IMG/VR virus record: IMGVR_UViG_2695420650_000010
DNA from: a virus
Lineage: Duplodnaviria > Heunggongvirae > Uroviricota > Caudoviricetes
DNA: 4,273 bases
Strand: one strand, 5' to 3'
Under the pieces are notes generated by a model. It saw nothing but the letters and a program-made list of their open reading frames with translations. It was not told the DNA's origin and searched no databases. Positions 1-4,273 of this stretch are shown piece after piece. Position numbers and translations under genes: made by a program. Each line of letters starts with the position of its first letter. The first letter of the stretch is position 1.

Positions 1-25
1 GGGAAAAATATCATCAGATGGCTGC

Positions 26-214
26 TTAAAAAAAGAACAAATGGTAGTGTCCGCTATTGCCAGTACACCTCAGGGTATAAGGGGTTATGGCCACCGGACT
101 ACCAAACGGCTGCCAGCCCTCTTTCAGTTTATGTGTCAGCTTTTCCGCAAGATCTGACGGCGGCGCCGCCCTGACAACATCATAGTGTTTAAATGCCATG
201 GTTCTTTCCACCAT
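26..214 (-). CDS. hypothetical small protein of the phage late region (62 aa from ATG at 214; 57 aa if the internal ATG at 199 is the true start)
   Basis: Open frame on the late-operon strand, stop TAA at 26-28. The internal ATG at 197-199 is preceded by GGTGGAAAG (weak Shine-Dalgarno-like, about 7-nt spacer); the first ATG has none. The sequence MAFKHYDVVRAAPPSDLAEKL... feels familiar as a small conserved lambdoid-prophage protein, but I cannot name the family with certainty. Confidence 0.5.
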   Translation of the reverse strand: MVERTMAFKHYDVVRAAPPSDLAEKLTHKLKEGWQPFGSPVAITPYTLRCTGNSGHYHLFFF

Positions 215-459
215 CTGAAAAATAATTCTTTAAAATACCTGACATGTAATACAGAAAAAACACAAAACCATACCTTAAATAAAAACCTGATTATCAAGCA
301 GATATGCATGGATAAACTACAAGACGAGATATAAACCACCCTGCATTTAAATAAACAATAAACAACATCAGAAAAATAATTCTGCTCTATGGTTTACATT
401 CAAAAATATCATTTATACTTTTCAGAACATCACCAGCAAGGCATAAACAAGGAAACTAA
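215..459. promoter_or_regulatory. AT-rich divergent intergenic region with a 13-bp direct repeat GAAAAATAATTCT (217-229 and 371-383)
   Basis: Lies between the minus-strand ORF starting at 214 and the plus-strand ORF starting at 460. The exact 13-mer occurs twice, one copy abutting each flanking gene's upstream region. Confidence 0.35.
393..419 (+). promoter_or_regulatory. candidate sigma70 promoter for the plus-strand ORF at 460
   Basis: TTTACA (393-398), 15-nt spacer, TATACT (414-419). The spacer is short, so this is weak. A Shine-Dalgarno AAGGA (449-453) sits 6 nt before the ATG at 460. Confidence 0.25.
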
Positions 460-1229
460 ATGAAGTGGATTGTGATTGATACAGTTATCCAGCCATCATG
501 CGGAATATCTTTTTCAGTCATATGGAGTAAAATAAAATTAATAATCTGGTATCAATCGGATGCTTTCTTACCTCCTGAAAGTATATTTACACTGACTCAC
601 ACAGGCATCATGCTCAATAACAAAGTGCTACCTGTAACCATTTACAACGTAGTACCATTCAATAAAACATTCTGGAATTCAATCAAAAATAGCCAGGAAT
701 GCCCTACAAATACAGATAANNNNNNNNNNNNNNNNNNNNNNNNNNNNNNNNNNNNNNNNNNNNNNNNNNNNNNNNNNNNNNNNNNNNNNNNNNNNNNNNN
801 NNNNNNNNNNNNNNNNNNNNNNNNNNNNNNNNNNNNNNNNNNNNNNNNNNNNNNNNNNNNNNNNNNNNNNNATATAGCACCCTGACTGATACTGTAGTAC
901 CTAAGGTTCCAGAAACTGTGATGTATCNNNNNNNNNNNNNNNNNNNNNCAGTCATATGGAGTAAAATAAAATTAATAATCTGGTATCAATCGGATGCTTT
1001 CTTACCTCCTGAAAGTATATTTACACTGACTCACACAGGCATCATGCTCAATAACAAAGTGCTACCTGTAACCATTTACAACGTAGTACCATTCAATAAA
1101 ACATTCTGGAATTCAATCAAAAATAGCCAGGAATGCCCTACAAATACAGATAACGTATTGAATGAATGCTTTAATAACCGTTGCACTCTGCAAATATGTC
1201 CTTATGGACTAAAACAACAAAGTCCATAA
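460..1229 (+). CDS. hypothetical Cys-rich small protein; frame runs through two N gaps and a duplicated 205-bp segment (about 111 aa if the duplication is collapsed)
   Basis: ATG at 460 with AAGGA Shine-Dalgarno; stop TAA at 1227-1229. The frame is open across AT-rich DNA, where stops are frequent by chance. The C-terminal part has C-x10-C-x4-C-x4-C spacing ([23 protein letters not shown]). The minus strand here has no comparable ORF. True length is unknown because of the gaps. Confidence 0.4.
515..719. repeat. direct repeat copy 1 (205 bp), matching 949-1153 by eye
   Basis: Visually identical sequence at a 434-bp offset, ending exactly at the start of the N run. Confidence 0.8.
720..871. 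other. assembly gap (run of N)
   Basis: Contiguous n characters. Confidence 0.95.
928..948. other. assembly gap (run of N)
   Basis: Contiguous n characters; the 56 bp at 872-927 between the two gaps occurs nowhere else in the window. Confidence 0.95.
949..1153. repeat. direct repeat copy 2 (205 bp), matching 515-719 by eye
   Basis: Starts immediately after the N run and keeps the same reading frame as copy 1. Confidence 0.8.
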
Positions 1230-1232
1230 GGA
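1199..1232. repeat. 12-bp perfect inverted repeat TCCTTATGGACT / AGTCCATAAGGA with 10-nt spacer, overlapping the stop codon of the plus-strand ORF
   Basis: Arms at 1199-1210 and 1221-1232 are exact reverse complements. Function unknown; could be an RNA hairpin or a protein-binding site. Confidence 0.6.
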
Positions 1233-1248
1233 GTTTACTCACATCTGA

Positions 1249-1285
1249 CAAAATCAATATAAACAGCCCCTCCGGAGAGGGGCTG
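1249..1285 (-). terminator. rho-independent terminator-like hairpin for minus-strand transcripts
   Basis: 9-bp GC-rich stem CAGCCCCTC / GAGGGGCTG (1264-1272 and 1277-1285) with 4-nt loop. On the minus strand it is followed by the U-rich tail TTTATATTGATTTTG; on the plus strand there is no U tract. Confidence 0.5.
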
Positions 1286-1676
1286 GAGAGTGGCGCTATG
1301 TGCCATTGCATGGTGCCGGGTGCCTCCCGGTGAATTCAGTACCAGCACCTGAATCCGCGATTATCCCATATACCTACTCGCTGATTGCCCCTCCGCACAG
1401 GGGGATTCACCATGCCAGTTTCTTTTAACAAACTCCCCGCAAACCAGACAACAGTCAACCGCCTGAATTGTGAAGTATTTAAAAATTTCTCCCGCTAACT
1501 GATACCCGGCTAACAGTCTGGCGTTTTCTTTTTCAGCAACGGGAAAGCAACAACCACCACACCCGCCACCAGCACACCGTCAGCCAGCACTGACATTATC
1601 CGGCTGCTGCAATGCCATTCACAAAAACAGTAAGCAATCACTTTTTACCGTAACAGGTGATAATCCAGATATGTAT

Positions 1677-2030
1677 CTACCCCAGATGAGTAATCCGAAG
1701 TTCATCCATACCACAGGTCCTGGCTATTCTGTTGTACTCCTGAACAAGAGCAAATAATTCTGAATTAGCAACCATGAACTCATCGCAAACCCTCTGTATA
1801 GCATCACTATTCAGAATAATAACGTCTCTTCCCGAAAGACGATCAGGAGTACAGAACAAAACTGTCAAACGGCTGAAGGCCTTTGCTCGTGCTGCATTGA
1901 CTATATCAATACGCTGCCTAAGGATGAAACACCCCGACGCCTCATCAATATTCACTCTACCCACACCATATGAATGATAAATATTTAATGCTGAAAAAAC
2001 CATTAGACCGTATAACAAACACTCAATCAA
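1677..2030 (-). CDS. hypothetical protein (117 aa from TTG at 2030; 108 aa from the first ATG at 2003)
   Basis: Longest ORF in the cargo segment and in late-operon orientation. No convincing Shine-Dalgarno before either start and no recognisable motifs, so confidence is low. Confidence 0.35.
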   Translation of the reverse strand: MIECLLYGLMVFSALNIYHSYGVGRVNIDEASGCFILRQRIDIVNAARAKAFSRLTVLFCTPDRLSGRDVIILNSDAIQRVCDEFMVANSELFALVQEYNRIARTCGMDELRITHLG

Positions 2031-2140
2031 TACTTAACAGAACTTTTATTTTTGACAAACATAAAATATTTTCAACAATATCCTGAGCCAGGTATATTTC
2101 AGTATAAGGCTCTGCCGGAAGGAATCTGGAAGAATGAATA

Positions 2141-2217
2141 TGGCGCGCTGTACTGGATTCGAACCAGTGACCGATTGCTTAGAAGGCAATTGCTCTGTCC
2201 GGCTGAGCTAACAACGC
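2141..2217 (-). tRNA. tRNA-Arg (anticodon UCU), 77 nt with encoded CCA
   Basis: Reverse complement folds as a cloverleaf: acceptor GCGTTGT/ACAGCGC (one G-U pair), D-arm GCTC...GAGC, anticodon stem ATTGC/GCAAT with loop CTTCTAA, T-arm ACTGG-TTCGAAT-CCAGT, discriminator G, CCA. Similar from memory to E. coli argU; likely argN or argO of a lambdoid prophage, but I cannot tell which. Confidence 0.85.
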
Positions 2218-2230
2218 ATGATGCAGATAA

Positions 2231-2258
2231 TGGACCGCCATCGGGGACTTGAACCCCG
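2231..2258 (-). tRNA. partial tRNA, 3' end only (T-arm, acceptor 3' arm, discriminator U, CCA); 5' part lies in the N gap
   Basis: Minus strand reads CGGGG-TTCAAGT-CCCCG (a T-arm with TTCRANY loop), then ATGGCGG-T-CCA. Identity cannot be assigned. Confidence 0.4.
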
Positions 2259-2299
2259 NNNNNNNNNNNNNNNNNNNNNNNNNNNNNNNNNNNNNNNNN
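2259..2299. other. assembly gap (run of N) inside the tRNA cluster
   Basis: Contiguous n characters; true gap length unknown. Confidence 0.95.
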
Positions 2300-2367
2300 G
2301 TACTGGATTCGAACCAGTGACCGATTGCTTAGAAGGCAATTGCTCTGTCCGGCTGAGCTAACAACGC
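2300..2367 (-). tRNA. tRNA-Arg (anticodon UCU), second copy, 3' end truncated by the N gap
   Basis: The visible 68 nt are identical to the corresponding part of the tRNA-Arg at 2141-2217, including the anticodon loop. Confidence 0.75.
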
Positions 2368-2376
2368 TGAATACCG

Positions 2377-2399
2377 ATAATGGACCGCCATCGGGGACC
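2377..2399 (-). repeat. 23-nt tRNA 3'-end fragment, direct repeat of 2227-2249
   Basis: GATAATGGACCGCCATCGGGGAC occurs at both places. At 2227-2249 it continues into a proper T-arm; at 2377-2399 the adjoining sequence has no T-loop, so this copy is a remnant. Confidence 0.6.
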
Positions 2400-2467
2400 C
2401 GCCCCCGCACCAACAACCCTGTTATCGTGTCGTCTGCTCTTCCTGATAAGCTAATGGCGGTTTGTGA

Positions 2468-2543
2468 TGGTGGCCCTTGCTGGATTTGAACCAGCGACCT
2501 GGCGATTATGAGTCGCTCGCTCTCACCACTGAGCTAAAGGGCC
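2468..2543 (-). tRNA. ileZ: tRNA-Ile2 (anticodon CAU, lysidine type), 76 nt with encoded CCA
   Basis: Reverse complement GGCCCTTTAGCTCAGTGGTGAGAGCGAGCGACTCATAATCGCCAGGTCGCTGGTTCAAATCCAGCAAGGGCCACCA. Acceptor GGCCCTT/AAGGGCC, anticodon loop CTCATAA, T-loop TTCAAAT. Closely resembles E. coli ileX/ileY as I remember them. The ileZ-argN-argO arrangement is characteristic of lambdoid prophages. Confidence 0.85.
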
Positions 2544-2583
2544 GGGAGCAGAATAATAACGGCGCGTAATTAATTCTTCAATA

Positions 2584-3642
2584 TCATCCGTTCTGGCTGA
2601 CTAAATCCTGTACTTCCCGAACCGTCTGCTCAAAACGTTCAGTCTCCAGCTCAACGCCAATTGCACGACGCCCGAGCGCCAGTGCCGCTTTCACTGTCGA
2701 ACCCAACCCCATGAAAAAATCTGCAATCAGGTCACCCGGACGACTGCTAGCGCTGATTATCTGCTGCAGCATTTCTGCCGGTTTTTCGCACGGATGTTTC
2801 CCGGGATAGAACTGCACCGGTTTATGCGTCCACACATCGGTATACGGCACCTGCACCGTCACGCCAAAATACCGCCGCAGATGTTTATATTCACTCAGCA
2901 GCTCCGCATACTGCCGGTTCAGTGAGGTATACGTATCCACCAGCTGGTGGTGGAGCTTTTCCAGTTCACCACGCCGATGCTTCTCTTCTGCCACCCGGGC
3001 AAACAGCGCCTGTAATTTCAGATAATCGCTTTCATTCGGCAACTGCCACTGACCGGCACTGAACCAGTGCGACACCATGTTTTTCTTTCCTGTGGCATCT
3101 GCAATCTGTTTTGCCGTTATCCCCAGGGCAGCTCGCGCATCACGAAAGTAAGAAATCAGCGGGGCCATCACATGCTGTTTCAGTGCACTGCCCTTCGCCG
3201 CATACCCGGCATCTTTCGGACGATACGGCCCCTGATAATGTTCCGCGAACAGAATGCGCTCTGTGGCGGGGAAATACGCCCGCAGGCTTTCCTTGTTGCA
3301 TCCGTTCCAGCGTCCGGACGGCTTCGCCCAGATAATATGGTTCAGCACACTGAAGCGTTCACGCATCATGATTTCGATATCAGATGCCAGGCGATGACCA
3401 CAGAACAGGTAAAGACTTCCGGCAGGTTTCAGCACCCGCCAGAACTGCGCCAGACACTGGTCCAGCCACTTCAGGTAATCATCGTCGCCCTTCCACTGGT
3501 TATCCCAGCCCTCAGGCTTCACTTTAAAGTACGGCGGGTCCGTGACTATCAGGTCAACAGAATTTTCGGGTAACGACCGGATAAATTCCAGGCAGTCGGC
3601 GTTGATTAACTCACAACTGGATATTTTTACAGTATTAAGCAT
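2584..3642 (-). CDS. DNA methyltransferase, beta-class N6-adenine or N4-cytosine (N6_N4_Mtase family), apparently orphan
   Basis: 352-aa ORF, ATG at 3642, TGA at 2584. Motif IV DLIVTDPPYF near the N-terminus; HPCEKP (HPxxKP-type) and AdoMet-binding motif I DFFMGLGST near the C-terminus. That order is typical of beta-class amino-methyltransferases (CcrM, M.HinfI, M.RsrI-like). No endonuclease gene is adjacent in the window. Target site cannot be inferred. Confidence 0.92.
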   Translation of the reverse strand: MLNTVKISSCELINADCLEFIRSLPENSVDLIVTDPPYFKVKPEGWDNQWKGDDDYLKWLDQCLAQFWRVLKPAGSLYLFCGHRLASDIEIMMRERFSVLNHIIWAKPSGRWNGCNKESLRAYFPATERILFAEHYQGPYRPKDAGYAAKGSALKQHVMAPLISYFRDARAALGITAKQIADATGKKNMVSHWFSAGQWQLPNESDYLKLQALFARVAEEKHRRGELEKLHHQLVDTYTSLNRQYAELLSEYKHLRRYFGVTVQVPYTDVWTHKPVQFYPGKHPCEKPAEMLQQIISASSRPGDLIADFFMGLGSTVKAALALGRRAIGVELETERFEQTVREVQDLVSQNG

Positions 3643-3674
3643 GGATCATTAAGCCTGTCTCTGATAGGCTCATT

Positions 3675-3693
3675 CTGCTTTTGCGCAAAGCAG
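3675..3693. promoter_or_regulatory. near-perfect 19-bp palindrome CTGCTTTTGCGCAAAGCAG upstream of the methyltransferase start
   Basis: Arms CTGCTTT / AAAGCAG around a central GCGC, 33-51 nt upstream of the ATG at 3642. A weak promoter-like pair, TTGCGC then 16 nt then TATCAG on the minus strand, puts the -35 at the palindrome centre. Candidate operator. Confidence 0.35.
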
Positions 3694-3734
3694 TGGGCCT
3701 GAGGTTTGCTTGTGAACCCAACGCATGAGCAGAT

Positions 3735-3774
3735 GGCTGGTGGGTGCCCCTAACACCCACCNCCCCCCCCAGCC
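3735..3774. repeat. inverted repeat GGCTGGTGGGTG / CACCCACC...AGCC interrupted by a poly-C tract (poly-G on the coding strand) containing an ambiguous base
   Basis: Left arm 3735-3746; right arm 3754-3761 plus 3771-3774, split by c-n-cccccccc at 3761-3770. The minus strand is G-tract rich (G8, GGTGGG, GGGG). Confidence 0.6.
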
Positions 3775-3791
3775 GCCCATTTACCACAAAT

Positions 3792-3815
3792 AAAAAAGCC
3801 TTCACTGCGGAAGGC
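3792..3815 (-). terminator. rho-independent terminator-like hairpin overlapping the stop codon of the 65-aa ORF
   Basis: 6-bp stem GCCTTC / GAAGGC (3798-3803 and 3810-3815) with 6-nt loop, followed on the minus strand by TTTTTTATTTG. The stem is short, so moderate confidence. Confidence 0.45.
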
Positions 3816-3999
3816 GTCTGTAACAACCGAACTGATAGTCTGCCAGACCCGCCATAACCAGCTGGGTCAGTATTAACTGGCAGCGTTCGCGTGAAAGGTA
3901 AGTATTCTGCGCTATCTCCCCGACTGTCGCCGGTTCGGTAACGCTTAATTCATTAAACACCACTCTGGCGGTTTCTGTCATATCCTGCTGTTTTAGCAT
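3802..3999 (-). CDS. hypothetical small protein (65 aa), possible helix-turn-helix DNA-binding protein
   Basis: ATG at 3999 preceded by a good Shine-Dalgarno (AAAGGAAAAG, about 6-nt spacer); stop TGA at 3802-3804. The segment TVGEIAQNTYLSRERCQLILTQLVMAGL has an HTH-like pattern. Sits between two terminator-like hairpins, directly upstream of the methyltransferase. Confidence 0.6.
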   Translation of the reverse strand: MLKQQDMTETARVVFNELSVTEPATVGEIAQNTYLSRERCQLILTQLVMAGLADYQFGCYRRLPQ

Positions 4000-4117
4000 G
4001 TCTTTTCCTTTTCCGGTTAACGTGACACACCAATAACTCTTGTCGAAAAAGCCAGCAAGCTGAAAGACAGGTATTCACCGCCACCAGCGCGTTTACTGTA
4101 CTGACGCGATTTCAGTC

Positions 4118-4143
4118 ATAAAAAACCCGCTCGGCGGCGGGTT
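4118..4143 (-). terminator. rho-independent terminator (tR'-like) for minus-strand transcripts
   Basis: Stem CCCGC / GCGGG (4126-4130 and 4137-4141), extendable by two A-T pairs, followed on the minus strand by six U (complement of A 4120-4125). Sits about 45-65 nt downstream of the candidate promoter. Confidence 0.6.
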
Positions 4144-4190
4144 GTAGAAACTCTTCTAACGTCAGGCATAAAACGCCCATCGTTATGACG

Positions 4191-4218
4191 AATTTACCAC
4201 AGATTCCGGAAAAATCAA
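4191..4218 (-). promoter_or_regulatory. candidate late promoter (pR'-like) with extended -10
   Basis: On the minus strand: -35 TTGATT (complement of 4213-4218), 16-nt spacer, TGgTAAATT (complement of 4191-4199). As I remember it, the lambda pR' -10 region is GGGTAAATT with -35 TTGACT. Position between the end of an upstream ORF and a terminator fits pR'/tR' architecture. Confidence 0.45.
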
Positions 4219-4273
4219 CCTTGTTACCTAGTTACCTTTTTTAACTGCCGCTCAGCCCATGCTTCTTCAATAT

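What the first reader, a model, noticed from the sequence alone, without database searches (positions are those of the whole stretch)
1..4273. Window reads as the Q-dependent late switch region of a lambdoid prophage, with an unusually loaded segment between tR' and the tRNAs
On the minus strand the order is: 3' end of an upstream ORF, pR'-like promoter, short transcript terminator, small HTH-like ORF, second terminator, DNA methyltransferase, ileZ-like and argN/argO-like tRNAs, a cargo segment, and a small late ORF. In the lambdoid Shiga-toxin phages I know, Q, pR' and tR' are followed almost directly by the tRNAs and stxAB. Here a regulator-like gene and a methyltransferase sit between the terminator and the tRNAs, and the toxin position holds unrelated ORFs. 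Everything downstream of pR' should be expressed only after Q antitermination, so these genes would be induction-coupled.
Basis: partly seen in the sequence, partly recalled or inferred. Interest (0 to 1): 0.6.

Follow-up and report, generated by a model that had tools for sequence, protein, structure and literature searches.

The report
Ordinary lambdoid prophage late-gene switch region
The window is the start of the late operon of a very common E. coli/Shigella lambda-like prophage, and the gene arrangement flagged as unusual is already described and occurs in over a third of complete E. coli genomes.

Summary
The features and their order on the minus strand are real. They are the Q 3' end, a lambda-type pR' with its pause element, tR', a 65-aa winged-helix ORF, a second terminator, a DNA methyltransferase, tRNAs, cargo, and the 5' part of a nanS-p-type esterase gene. 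Near-identical loci in complete genomes have a 273-aa lambda-Q homologue upstream and a holin/lysozyme/Rz cassette downstream, so the late-switch reading holds.

The "unusually loaded" reading does not hold. The tR'-ORF65-methylase-ileZ segment occurs at 80% coverage or more in 2009 of 5426 complete E. coli genomes. Stx2a phages such as Stx2_EH1910 carry it on the same backbone, and PMC8456039 describes it. Phage 933W keeps an in-frame remnant of the methylase 3' end, so its direct Q-to-tRNA layout looks like a deletion derivative.

The methylase belongs to the M.EcoGI/GII non-specific adenine methylase family, which is silent in lysogens. The toxin slot holds two small ORFs (phrog_2873 and DUF3927). 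The known sRNA STnc100 follows, where it follows stx2B in Stx2 phages.

Not everything is Q-coupled: there is a pT-like tRNA promoter, iraM is antisense, and the sRNA has been detected without deliberate induction. Window 1-73 is an IS600 end. Two duplications around N runs look like assembly artefacts.

Verdict: already known, low interest.

The parts
4224..4273 (-). 3' end (last 16 codons plus TAA) of the late antiterminator gene Q
   Evidence: Aligns to the end of the annotated 273-aa 'antitermination protein' in L001, L002 and L073. That protein hits Pfam Antiterm PF03589 (E = 1.5e-50), lambda Q in the PDB (7UBM, E = 1.4e-39) and lambda Q directly (31% identity, E = 1e-39).
4191..4218 (-). 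pR'-type late promoter: -35 TTGATT (4213-4218), 16-nt spacer, -10 TAAATT (4191-4196)
   Evidence: Same -10 hexamer as lambda pR', conserved in related loci. It scores 8 of 12 and so falls below the threshold of the generic scan. Function is inferred from homology and position.
4176..4184 (-). -10-like pause-inducing element AACGATGGG (part of qut), 6 nt after the -10
   Evidence: Identical sequence and spacing to lambda. The combined pattern occurs once in the window and 0 times in 200 shuffles.
4118..4143 (-). tR' intrinsic terminator (7-bp G+C-rich stem, 6-nt loop, TTTTTTAT)
   Evidence: Terminator scan and fold. Also present in phage 1720a-02, which has a different Q gene. If the start site lies 6-8 nt after the -10, the terminated transcript would be about 65 nt (inference).
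3802..3999 (-). ORF65, a single-domain winged-helix protein (phrog_331; named 'TrmB family transcriptional regulator' by NCBI)
   Evidence: phrog_331 E = 1.4e-37. Pfam TrmB match is weak (E = 0.0026, below cut-off). 334 homologue clusters in Escherichia, Salmonella, Klebsiella and Citrobacter. AF2 model pLDDT 91 with H-H-H-beta-beta topology. Foldseek matches the winged-helix domains of IclR, OhrR and SelB, TM up to 0.82, probability 1.0, best E only 1e-3.
3790..3815 (-). Second intrinsic terminator; the ORF65 stop codon lies in its loop
   Evidence: Terminator scan. The stem is conserved and the loop varies among 7 loci.
3643..3789 (-). Conserved, strongly structured leader upstream of the methylase; function unknown
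   Evidence: Mostly invariant across 7 loci. Fold energy z = -4.0, including a 12-bp perfect hairpin. The GGGGGGGGN at 3762-3770 is unique to the window.
2584..3642 (-). Beta-class N6-adenine DNA methyltransferase of the M.EcoGI/M.EcoGII family (DPPY motif, then central domain, then FxGxG motif)
   Evidence: Pfam PF01555 E = 8e-42. 93% identical to the M.EcoGII sequence printed in the supplement of PMC11551740, which is machine-read text, so this is a lower bound. 95% identical to the phage 1720a-02 methylase, which PMC5778455 names as very similar to M.EcoGII.
2553..2581 (-). pT-like promoter for the tRNAs (TTGAAG, 17 nt, TATTAT)
   Evidence: Promoter scan. Aligns with the feature annotated 'pT; putative tRNA promoter' in 933W.
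2468..2543 (-). ileZ-type tRNA (anticodon CAT; annotated tRNA-Ile in RefSeq)
   Evidence: ARAGORN and Rfam. Every column is invariant in the alignment with 933W ileZ.
2381..2461 (-). Decayed argN-type tRNA: acceptor and T arms kept, anticodon region replaced
   Evidence: Alignment with 933W, Stx2_EH1910 and ATCC 11775, where ARAGORN calls tRNA-Arg(TCG). It is not called in the window or in L001.
2294..2367 (-). argO-type tRNA-Arg(UCU), copy 1; its 3' end is masked by N
   Evidence: Rfam tRNA 50.3 bits. 2300-2398 matches 2150-2248 at 96%.
2141..2217 (-). argO-type tRNA-Arg(UCU), copy 2, preceded by a 3' fragment of an argN-like tRNA (2231-2258)
   Evidence: ARAGORN and Rfam; alignment.
1677..2003 (-). 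ORF108 (phrog_2873), a small protein of unknown function in the slot that holds stx2AB in Stx2 phages
   Evidence: phrog_2873 E = 3.8e-70 over the full length. 23 homologue clusters, with Escherichia or Shigella the only organisms named, down to 54% identity with a conserved core. AF2 gives a helical hairpin, pLDDT 76. No PDB fold match at E <= 0.001.
1510..1641 (-). DUF3927 small hydrophobic protein (43 aa)
   Evidence: Pfam PF13064 E = 1.7e-27. phrog_1470, 'TciB-like' moron. Annotated in L001 and L002.
1255..1444 (-). STnc100-family sRNA gene (related to PasD) with its terminator hairpin at 1264-1285
   Evidence: Rfam RF02076, 132.4 bits against a gathering score of 47, E = 4.7e-30. Terminator scan. 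The same family sits directly downstream of stx2B in 933W and Stx2_EH1910 (PMC12370729).
460..1229 (+). iraM (anti-adaptor protein) on the opposite strand. In the window it is split by N runs, a 56-bp foreign island (872-927) and a 205-bp perfect duplication (515-719 = 949-1153)
   Evidence: The intact 111-aa gene in L001 scores 162 bits against a cut-off of 121 for NCBIfam NF007393. Duplication. The island belongs to another allele.
74..199 (-). 5' part (DUF1737 domain) of a nanS-p-type sialate O-acetylesterase gene, truncated
   Evidence: Pfam DUF1737 E = 1.5e-15. The full 617-aa DUF1737-SASA-DUF6645 gene is at this position in JJ1886 and the S. sonnei-like loci.
1..73 (.). End of an IS600 (IS3 family) copy; probably a contig break
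   Evidence: 100% identical to several IS ends next to IS3-family transposase genes in L075-L079. Found in 2665 E. coli genomes under 'IS3-like element IS600 family transposase'.

Best explanation
The window is the promoter-proximal part of the late operon of a lambdoid prophage of the ompW(yciD)-integrating family, in an E. coli or Shigella genome. It is the stx-less counterpart of Stx2a phages such as Stx2_EH1910.

Proposed mechanism:
1. A lambda-type Q protein, whose gene ends at 4224, engages RNA polymerase paused at the -10-like element just downstream of pR' (4176-4218). This step is inferred from homology to lambda.
2. Without Q, transcripts stop at tR' (4118-4143). Any that escape stop at the terminator after ORF65 (3790-3815).
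3. With Q, polymerase reads through into ORF65 (a winged-helix protein) and an M.EcoGI/GII-family non-specific adenine methyltransferase. It then continues through the tRNAs, small moron ORFs, an esterase gene and the lysis genes.
4. The methylase is thus kept silent in the lysogen, where it would be harmful. It is made late in lytic growth, when it can methylate progeny phage DNA against restriction. This role is inferred.

Some features do not depend on Q:
- The tRNAs have their own pT-like promoter.
- The STnc100 sRNA has its own terminator; no promoter of its own could be identified.
- iraM, on the other strand, needs its own promoter, which was not identified here.

In this copy the operon is cut by IS600 inside the esterase gene.
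For: - Context: near-identical loci (95-98%) in complete genomes show the order RusA, Q (273 aa), ORF65, methylase, tRNA-Ile, tRNA-Arg, DUF3927, iraM (antisense), DUF1737/SASA esterase, holin, lysozyme, Rz, terminase.
- Integration site: an ompW gene or gene fragment lies at one edge of the prophage in L001 and L075.
- Q is a lambda Q homologue.
- pR' -10 and pause element: identical sequence and spacing to lambda, with 0 of 200 shuffles matching.
- Two intrinsic terminators.
- Same backbone with stx2AB in the slot in Stx2_EH1910.
- STnc100 flanks the slot in 933W, Stx2_EH1910 and the window.
- The methylase is 93% or more identical to M.EcoGII. M.EcoGI/GII are not expressed in the lysogen and are deleterious when expressed constitutively (PMC5778455).
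- pR' is constitutive and terminated at tR' in lysogens of Stx phages (PMC7547250).
- The arrangement is described in the literature (PMC8456039).
Against: - No expression or read-through data exist for this Q/pR' type in the sources read.
- The Q gene and lysis genes are not in the window, and the window's own contig could not be found, so the context comes from homologous loci.
- The S. sonnei-like loci, which match the window exactly from Q to the methylase apart from the poly-G run, are heavily IS-ridden prophage remnants. The switch may be inert in the source strain.
- Generic promoter and terminator scans are not enriched over shuffles.
- The methylase specificity is inferred from 93% identity and was not measured.
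- The identity of the M.EcoGII reference rests on machine-read supplementary text.
Confidence: 0.85

Rival explanations
1. One reading: an unusual late region in which an extra regulator and methylase have been loaded between tR' and the tRNAs, making a novel induction-coupled cargo set.
For: 933W and VT2-Sakai-type phages do go from Q/pR'/terminators almost directly to ileZ-argN-argO. Natural variants lacking exactly ORF65 and the methylase exist, with window 4118 joined to 2583 in L007, L024 and L061.
Against: The loaded form is present in 2009 of 5426 complete E. coli genomes at 80% coverage or more. It is also in many Stx2 phages and is described in PMC8456039. 933W retains the last 36 methylase codons in frame, so the short form is probably the derived one.
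Confidence: 0.04
2. Decayed remnant: the features are real by descent but the switch no longer works in the source genome. The prophage is cryptic and IS-ridden, Q is never made, and ORF65 and the methylase are permanently silent. Only the independently transcribed parts (tRNAs, STnc100, possibly iraM) matter to the host.
For: An IS600 end sits at 1-73 inside the esterase gene. argN is decayed. In the S. sonnei-like loci identical to the window over 2563-4273 apart from the poly-G run, IS1 and IS3-family insertions interrupt the region upstream of Q. Those loci also show no intact lysozyme and IS copies among the tail genes.
Against: Q, ORF65 and the methylase reading frames are intact in those loci. 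The exact methylase protein is listed in 4314 blocks of the collection. Other carriers such as JJ1886 have complete lysis and morphogenesis modules. This rival concerns the state of this copy, not what the element is.
Confidence: 0.35
3. ORF65 and the methylase are transcribed in the lysogen from a promoter of their own, acting as an orphan epigenetic regulator of the host rather than as late phage genes.
For: A conserved, structured 150-nt leader precedes the methylase and could hide regulatory signals. ORF65 has a good Shine-Dalgarno sequence (read directly from the window).
Against: No promoter-like site was found between tR' and the methylase start. Two terminators precede the methylase. 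SMRT methylomes show no activity of M.EcoGI/GII homologues in lysogens, and constitutive expression is harmful (PMC5778455; PMC6602927).
Confidence: 0.07

Closest known systems
Stx2a-converting phage Stx2_EH1910 (LC567834) and the 45-kb yciD/yecE-integrating Stx2a phage group described in PMC8456039
   Same: Same gene order: 273-aa Q (quuQ), 65-aa ORF, DNA methylase, tRNA-Ile2, tRNA-Arg, [slot], STnc100, iraM (antisense), nanS-p esterase, holin, endolysin. Identity is 92-94% from the Q end to the tRNAs.
   Different: The slot holds stx2AB in the phage, but ORF108 (phrog_2873) and DUF3927 in the window. argN is intact in the phage and decayed in the window. The window's esterase gene is cut by IS600.
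Phage 933W late region (Q933, pR', qut, terminators, pT, ileZ-argN-argO, stx2AB, STnc100, nanS-p, S-R-Rz)
   Same: Same logic and same order from pT onward. ileZ is identical, and pT and STnc100 are at equivalent positions.
   Different: 933W has a different Q family and pR' leader (StxS). It has no ORF65 and only a 36-codon remnant of the methylase.
Phage lambda Q / pR' / qut / tR' (6S RNA)
   Same: Q is a homologue (31% identity, E = 1e-39). It shares the -10 TAAATT and the AACGATGGG pause element with identical spacing, followed by an intrinsic terminator.
   Different: Q is 273 aa rather than 207, with a 66-residue insertion carrying extra CxxC motifs. The sequence between -35 and -10, where lambda Q binds, differs. 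The terminated transcript would be about 65 nt, compared with 194 nt in lambda (figure from memory). In lambda the lysis genes follow almost directly.
M.EcoGII / M.EcoGI (non-specific adenine DNA methyltransferases of E. coli O104:H4 C227-11 prophages; PMC5778455)
   Same: At least 93% identity over the full length and the same DPPY ... FxGxG beta-class layout. The gene is prophage-borne and silent in lysogens.
   Different: 352 aa rather than 349, with a different C-terminal tail and about 20 substitutions. Activity and lack of specificity have not been measured for this allele.
STnc100 (Rfam RF02076) / PasD prophage sRNAs
   Same: Full-length covariance-model match of 132 bits with a terminator, in the late region of a prophage with a PF03589-type Q. 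This is as reported for PasD and STnc100 (bioRxiv 10.64898/2026.05.13.724894).
   Different: It scores lower than the 933W copy (208 bits) because of an 11-nt deletion in one internal hairpin. Its targets are unknown.

Membership tests
Lambdoid Q-dependent late antitermination switch | Q antiterminator gene immediately upstream of the late promoter | tested here: met
   The window holds only the last 16 codons. Loci 95-98% identical have the full 273-aa gene, homologous to lambda Q.
Lambdoid Q-dependent late antitermination switch | Sigma-70 promoter followed by a -10-like promoter-proximal pause element (qut) | tested here: met
   TAAATT-N6-AACGATGGG is identical to lambda in sequence and spacing, with 0 of 200 shuffles matching. 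Pausing itself was not tested.
Lambdoid Q-dependent late antitermination switch | Intrinsic terminator(s) between pR' and the late genes | tested here: met
   4118-4143 and 3790-3815.
Lambdoid Q-dependent late antitermination switch | Lysis and morphogenesis genes downstream on the same strand | tested here: met
   They are not in the window, which ends in IS600. Holin, lysozyme, Rz and terminase are present in L001 and L002. L003 has them too but with a frameshifted lysozyme gene. L075 has the holin but no intact lysozyme gene.
Lambdoid Q-dependent late antitermination switch | Q-dependent read-through of the terminators | not testable with these tools
   Needs reporter or transcript assays with and without Q.
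Shiga-toxin-converting phage | stxA and stxB between the tRNAs and STnc100/nanS-p | tested here: not met
   The slot 1445-2140 holds ORF108 and DUF3927 only. In phage records the alignments cover the flanks only, and stx2A/B lie between the aligned pieces.
M.EcoGI/GII non-specific adenine methyltransferase family | Beta-class motif order: N-terminal DPPY, central domain, C-terminal FxGxG | tested here: met
   DPPY at residues 35-38 and FMGLG at residues 310-314 (read). Pfam N6_N4_Mtase covers residues 29-340.
M.EcoGI/GII non-specific adenine methyltransferase family | Close full-length sequence identity to M.EcoGII | tested here: met
   324 of 349 residues (93%) match the sequence in the PMC11551740 supplement, which is machine-read, so this is a lower bound. 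95% identity to the 1720a-02 homologue named in PMC5778455.
M.EcoGI/GII non-specific adenine methyltransferase family | Methylates adenine in any sequence context | not testable with these tools
   Needs expression followed by SMRT/LC-MS analysis.
STnc100 sRNA (RF02076) | Covariance-model score above Rfam's gathering threshold over the full model | tested here: met
   132.4 bits against 47, model positions 1-206.
STnc100 sRNA (RF02076) | Expressed as a discrete small RNA | not testable with these tools
   Only a terminator (1264-1285) is visible, and no convincing promoter was found by eye or by scan. Expression of family members is reported in PMC12370729.
933W-type phage tRNA cluster ileZ-argN-argO | Three intact tRNAs: Ile2(CAU), Arg(UCG), Arg(UCU) | tested here: not met
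   ileZ is intact and identical. argN is decayed and not called. argO-type is present twice.
Winged-helix (TrmB/MarR/IclR-like) DNA-binding regulators, for ORF65 | Winged-helix fold | tested here: met
   AF2 pLDDT 91 with H-H-H-beta-beta topology. Foldseek TM up to 0.82 to winged-helix domains, probability 1.0, best E only 1e-3.
Winged-helix (TrmB/MarR/IclR-like) DNA-binding regulators, for ORF65 | Sequence membership of Pfam TrmB | tested here: inconclusive
   18 bits against a cut-off of 25.6, E = 0.0026. NCBI names its homologues 'TrmB family' or 'DprA-like winged helix'. DNA binding is untested.
IraM anti-adaptor | Full-length match above the NCBIfam cut-off | tested here: inconclusive
   The intact homologue in L001 scores 162 bits against 121. 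In the window the gene is split by N runs and a duplication that may be an assembly artefact.

The most novel reading that the evidence does not exclude
Two things about this common module remain uncharacterised.

1. The roughly 65-nt transcript expected from the constitutive pR' and ended at tR' could be a trans-acting sRNA, as StxS is for the unrelated 933W/Sp5 leader.
2. ORF65, the winged-helix protein that is the first late gene, together with the conserved and strongly structured 150-nt leader, could control or target the otherwise indiscriminate M.EcoGII-type methylase. One possibility is that it limits methylation to phage DNA or times translation.

Nothing here excludes either idea, and nothing tests them.
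Probability: 0.12. Interest if true: 0.4.

Novelty: already known. Interest (0 to 1): 0.1.

Why it matters
It matters little as a discovery. The arrangement is widespread, annotated in RefSeq, and described for Stx2a phages.

Two points are useful:
- The gene's position behind pR'/tR' gives a simple explanation for why M.EcoGI/GII-type non-specific adenine methylases are silent in lysogens.
- The 933W layout, often treated as the reference, still carries a methylase remnant and so is probably the reduced form.

Tried and rejected
- Finding the source contig: an exact scan of genome contigs with the 56-bp island found nothing. The same pattern in viral contigs gave 67 loci. None of the dozen best-matching loci listed was collinear with the whole window. 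Lookup by the exact methylase protein gave S. sonnei-like chromosomes. These match the window exactly from 4273 to 2563, apart from the poly-G run, but diverge from 2562 on. The window is therefore a mosaic or chimera whose own flanks could not be read.
- ORF108 function: no Pfam or NCBIfam hit. The AF2 helical hairpin gives only generic coiled-coil matches, none at E <= 0.001.
- Homology of ORF65 to lambda orf-64, which sits at the analogous position: none.
- A weak Rfam hit of the pR'-tR' leader to Trp_leader (21.8 bits against 41, E = 0.44) and a plastid-ycf2 hit antisense to the tRNA were treated as chance.
- A promoter for STnc100 or for ORF65/methylase: no convincing match by scan or by eye.
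- Similarity of the pR'-tR' leader to the 933W StxS region: none detected by blastn.
- The supplement of PMC5778455, wanted for a clean M.EcoGII sequence, is not held. The machine-read sequence from PMC11551740 was used instead.

Full report
**What is in the window**

Late transcription runs on the minus strand.

The window begins (4273-4224) with the last 16 codons and stop of a gene. In loci 95-98% identical from complete E. coli genomes, this is the annotated 273-aa antitermination protein. That protein hits Pfam Antiterm PF03589 (E = 1.5e-50). It is a lambda Q homologue: PDB 7UBM at E = 1.4e-39 and 31% identity to lambda Q at E = 1e-39, with a 66-residue insertion rich in CxxC.

Directly after the stop codon lie the promoter elements:
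- TTGATT (4218-4213), then 16 nt, then TAAATT (4196-4191).
- Six nt later, AACGATGGG (4184-4176).

The -10 hexamer, the six-base spacing and the pause-type element are identical to lambda pR' in the alignment. The combined pattern is found once in the window and in 0 of 200 shuffles. The generic promoter scan misses the site because it scores only 8 of 12. That scan shows no enrichment overall, and neither does the terminator scan (7 against 6.8 expected and 6 against 4.2). The evidence is therefore homology and position, not consensus counts.

A 7-bp G+C-rich hairpin with a T run follows at 4143-4118.

**ORF65 and the methylase**

ORF65 (3999-3802) is preceded by an AGGA-type ribosome binding site (read directly from the sequence).
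- It belongs to phrog_331 (E = 1.4e-37).
- It has 334 homologue clusters across Escherichia, Salmonella, Klebsiella and Citrobacter, often named 'TrmB family transcriptional regulator'.
- It models with pLDDT 91 as helix-helix-helix-beta-hairpin.
- It superposes on the winged-helix domains of IclR, OhrR and SelB, with TM up to 0.82.
- The Pfam TrmB match is below the cut-off.

'HTH-like' is therefore right at the level of fold. DNA binding is untested.

The ORF65 stop codon lies in the loop of the second terminator (3815-3798 plus T run). The stem is conserved and the loop varies among seven loci.

A 150-nt leader follows. It is conserved and strongly structured (z = -4.0), with a 12-bp perfect hairpin.

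The methyltransferase follows at 3642-2584.
- Pfam N6_N4_Mtase, E = 8e-42.
- DPPY motif near the N-terminus and FxGxG motif near the C-terminus.
- 95% identical to the methylase of phage 1720a-02.
- 93% identical to the M.EcoGII sequence printed in the supplement of PMC11551740. That text is machine-read, so 93% is a lower bound.

PMC5778455 describes M.EcoGII as a non-specific adenine methylase on a prophage. It is one of a very large family in E. coli prophages, with 1720a-02 named as a close relative. It is not expressed in the lysogen and is deleterious when expressed constitutively. The authors think it is likely switched on as the prophage excises.

**tRNAs and cargo**

Immediately after the methylase stop is TTGAAG-17-TATTAT (2581-2553). 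It aligns with the feature annotated 'pT; putative tRNA promoter' in 933W.

The tRNA region contains:
- An ileZ-type tRNA (2543-2468), invariant in the alignment with 933W.
- The argN position (2461-2381), which keeps its acceptor and T arms but has a replaced anticodon region. It is not called as a tRNA. The same is true in strain 300709.
- An argO-type tRNA-Arg(UCU) that occurs twice (2367-2294 and 2217-2141) through a duplication of about 150 bp. The junction of the duplication is masked by N.

The slot that holds stx2AB in Stx2 phages contains two small ORFs:
- ORF108 (2003-1677): phrog_2873, E = 3.8e-70, with Escherichia or Shigella the only organisms named among its homologues. It is predicted to be a helical hairpin and has no informative fold match.
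- A 43-aa DUF3927 protein (1641-1510).

It scores 132 bits against a gathering score of 47 and has its own terminator at 1285-1264. The same family sits just downstream of stx2B in 933W and Stx2_EH1910, as PMC12370729 reports. A 2026 preprint links STnc100 and PasD to prophages that carry a PF03589 Q.

iraM lies on the opposite strand (460-1229; NCBIfam).

It is the DUF1737 N-terminus of a nanS-p-type esterase gene (start at 199) running into the end of an IS600 copy, which occupies 1-73.

**Context**

- In strains 300709 and JJ1886, the region sits between RusA/Q on one side and nanS-p, holin, lysozyme, Rz and terminase on the other. The prophage lies next to ompW in 300709. In ATCC 11775 the lysozyme gene is frameshifted.
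- In the S. sonnei-like chromosomes that encode the identical methylase, the same region lies in an IS-ridden prophage next to ompW, with Q upstream and the esterase and holin downstream.
- Those loci are identical to the window from 4273 to 2563 except for a poly-G insertion.

The late-switch interpretation therefore stands.

**Is it unusual? No.**
- The whole window is matched at 80% coverage or more in 497 of 5426 complete E. coli genomes.
- The tR'-ORF65-methylase-ileZ segment is matched in 2009 of 5426, with a median of two matching places per genome and up to 14.
- Phage records with the same module include Stx2a, Stx2c, Stx2d and Stx2e converting phages.
- Stx2_EH1910 has exactly this backbone: Q 273 aa, 65-aa ORF, methylase, three tRNAs, stx2AB, STnc100, iraM antisense, esterase, holin.
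- PMC8456039 states that the 45-kb qO111-type Stx2a phages carry a transcriptional regulator and a DNA methylase between q and the tRNAs, unlike the 61-kb 933W-type group.
- 933W itself retains, just after its second terminator and before pT, an in-frame remnant encoding the last 36 residues of the methylase.
- IMG/VR contigs exist in which window position 4118 is joined directly to 2583, removing exactly ORF65 and the methylase.

**How it most likely works**

Shown:
- The sequence elements and their homology.
- The conserved gene order.
- The family assignment of the methylase.

Inferred:
- By analogy with lambda and Stx phages, pR' is constitutive and terminated at tR' in lysogens (PMC7547250).
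- Q made after induction lets polymerase read through both terminators into ORF65, the methylase and the rest of the late operon.

This fits the reported silence and toxicity of M.EcoGI/GII. It suggests late, indiscriminate adenine methylation of progeny DNA as protection against restriction.

- The tRNAs have a pT-like promoter.
- iraM cannot be read from pR'.
- STnc100 RNA was detected by RT-PCR in outer-membrane-vesicle preparations from STEC cultures, with no induction step mentioned in the passages read.

In this copy, and in the S. sonnei-like relatives, IS insertions may have made the switch inert. That is a rival about the state of this copy, not about what the element is.

**Quality of the window**
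- 515-719 and 949-1153 are identical, and they flank two N runs and a 56-bp island. In other genomes the island lies next to STnc100 in a different allele.
- The second argO copy carries flank variants of another allele.
- GGGGGGGGN at 3770-3762 is absent from six related loci.
- The window ends in IS600.

Together these suggest a short-read scaffold that mixes paralogous prophage copies.

**Verdict**

The late-switch interpretation is supported, the 'unusual' claim is not, and the 'all induction-coupled' claim holds only in part. The arrangement is already known and of low interest.

Noticed in passing
window 1-73: This is the end of an IS600 (IS3 family) copy, 100% identical to many copies elsewhere. 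It truncates the nanS-p-type esterase gene after its DUF1737 domain and probably marks a contig break.
   Followed up: yes
window 515-719 and 949-1153, with N runs 720-871 and 928-948 and the island 872-927: A 205-bp perfect direct duplication inside iraM surrounds two N runs and a 56-bp island. In ATCC 11775 and S. sonnei-like loci the island lies beside STnc100 in a different allele. This is probably a scaffold chimera of paralogous prophage copies.
   Followed up: partly
window 3762-3770: A GGGGGGGGN run is inserted relative to six related loci, inside the outer stem of a conserved hairpin. It looks like a sequencing or assembly artefact.
   Followed up: yes
L072 (933W) 2970-3080, compared with window 2587-2694: 933W carries an in-frame remnant of the last 36 codons of the M.EcoGII-type methylase between its second terminator and pT. 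Some GenBank records annotate it as 'putative DNA methylase'.
   Followed up: yes
L007, L024 and L061 (IMG/VR contigs): These natural variants join window position 4118 (the end of tR') directly to 2583 (just after the methylase stop). ORF65 and the methylase therefore behave as a precise insertion/deletion cassette. The same contigs also hold several late-region copies in tandem.
   Followed up: partly
window 3643-3789 (equivalent to L075 9851-10000): A conserved 150-nt leader lies between the ORF65 terminator and the methylase start. It has three hairpins, including a 12-bp perfect stem without a U tract, and a fold z-score of -4.0. It has no Rfam match and its function is unknown.
   Followed up: partly
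window 2381-2461 and 2231-2258: At 2381-2461 is a decayed argN-type tRNA with acceptor and T arms intact and the anticodon region replaced. At 2231-2258 is a second, better preserved 3' fragment of an argN-type tRNA in front of the duplicated argO copy.
   Followed up: partly
L003 (E. coli ATCC 11775) 8570-8779 and 9057-9247: Two STnc100-family copies lie in tandem in the late region of the type-strain prophage, which lacks iraM at this position.
   Followed up: no
L001 11227-12048 (Q protein): This Q is lambda Q with a 66-residue insertion that carries additional CxxC pairs. It gives two PF03589 matches and a sub-threshold DnaJ zinc-finger hit.
   Followed up: no
window 4118-4143, compared with L071 (phage 1720a-02): Phage 1720a-02 has unrelated Q genes and an unrelated promoter region, but it shares the sequence from the tR' hairpin onward. 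The mosaic junction therefore lies at or just before the terminator.
   Followed up: partly
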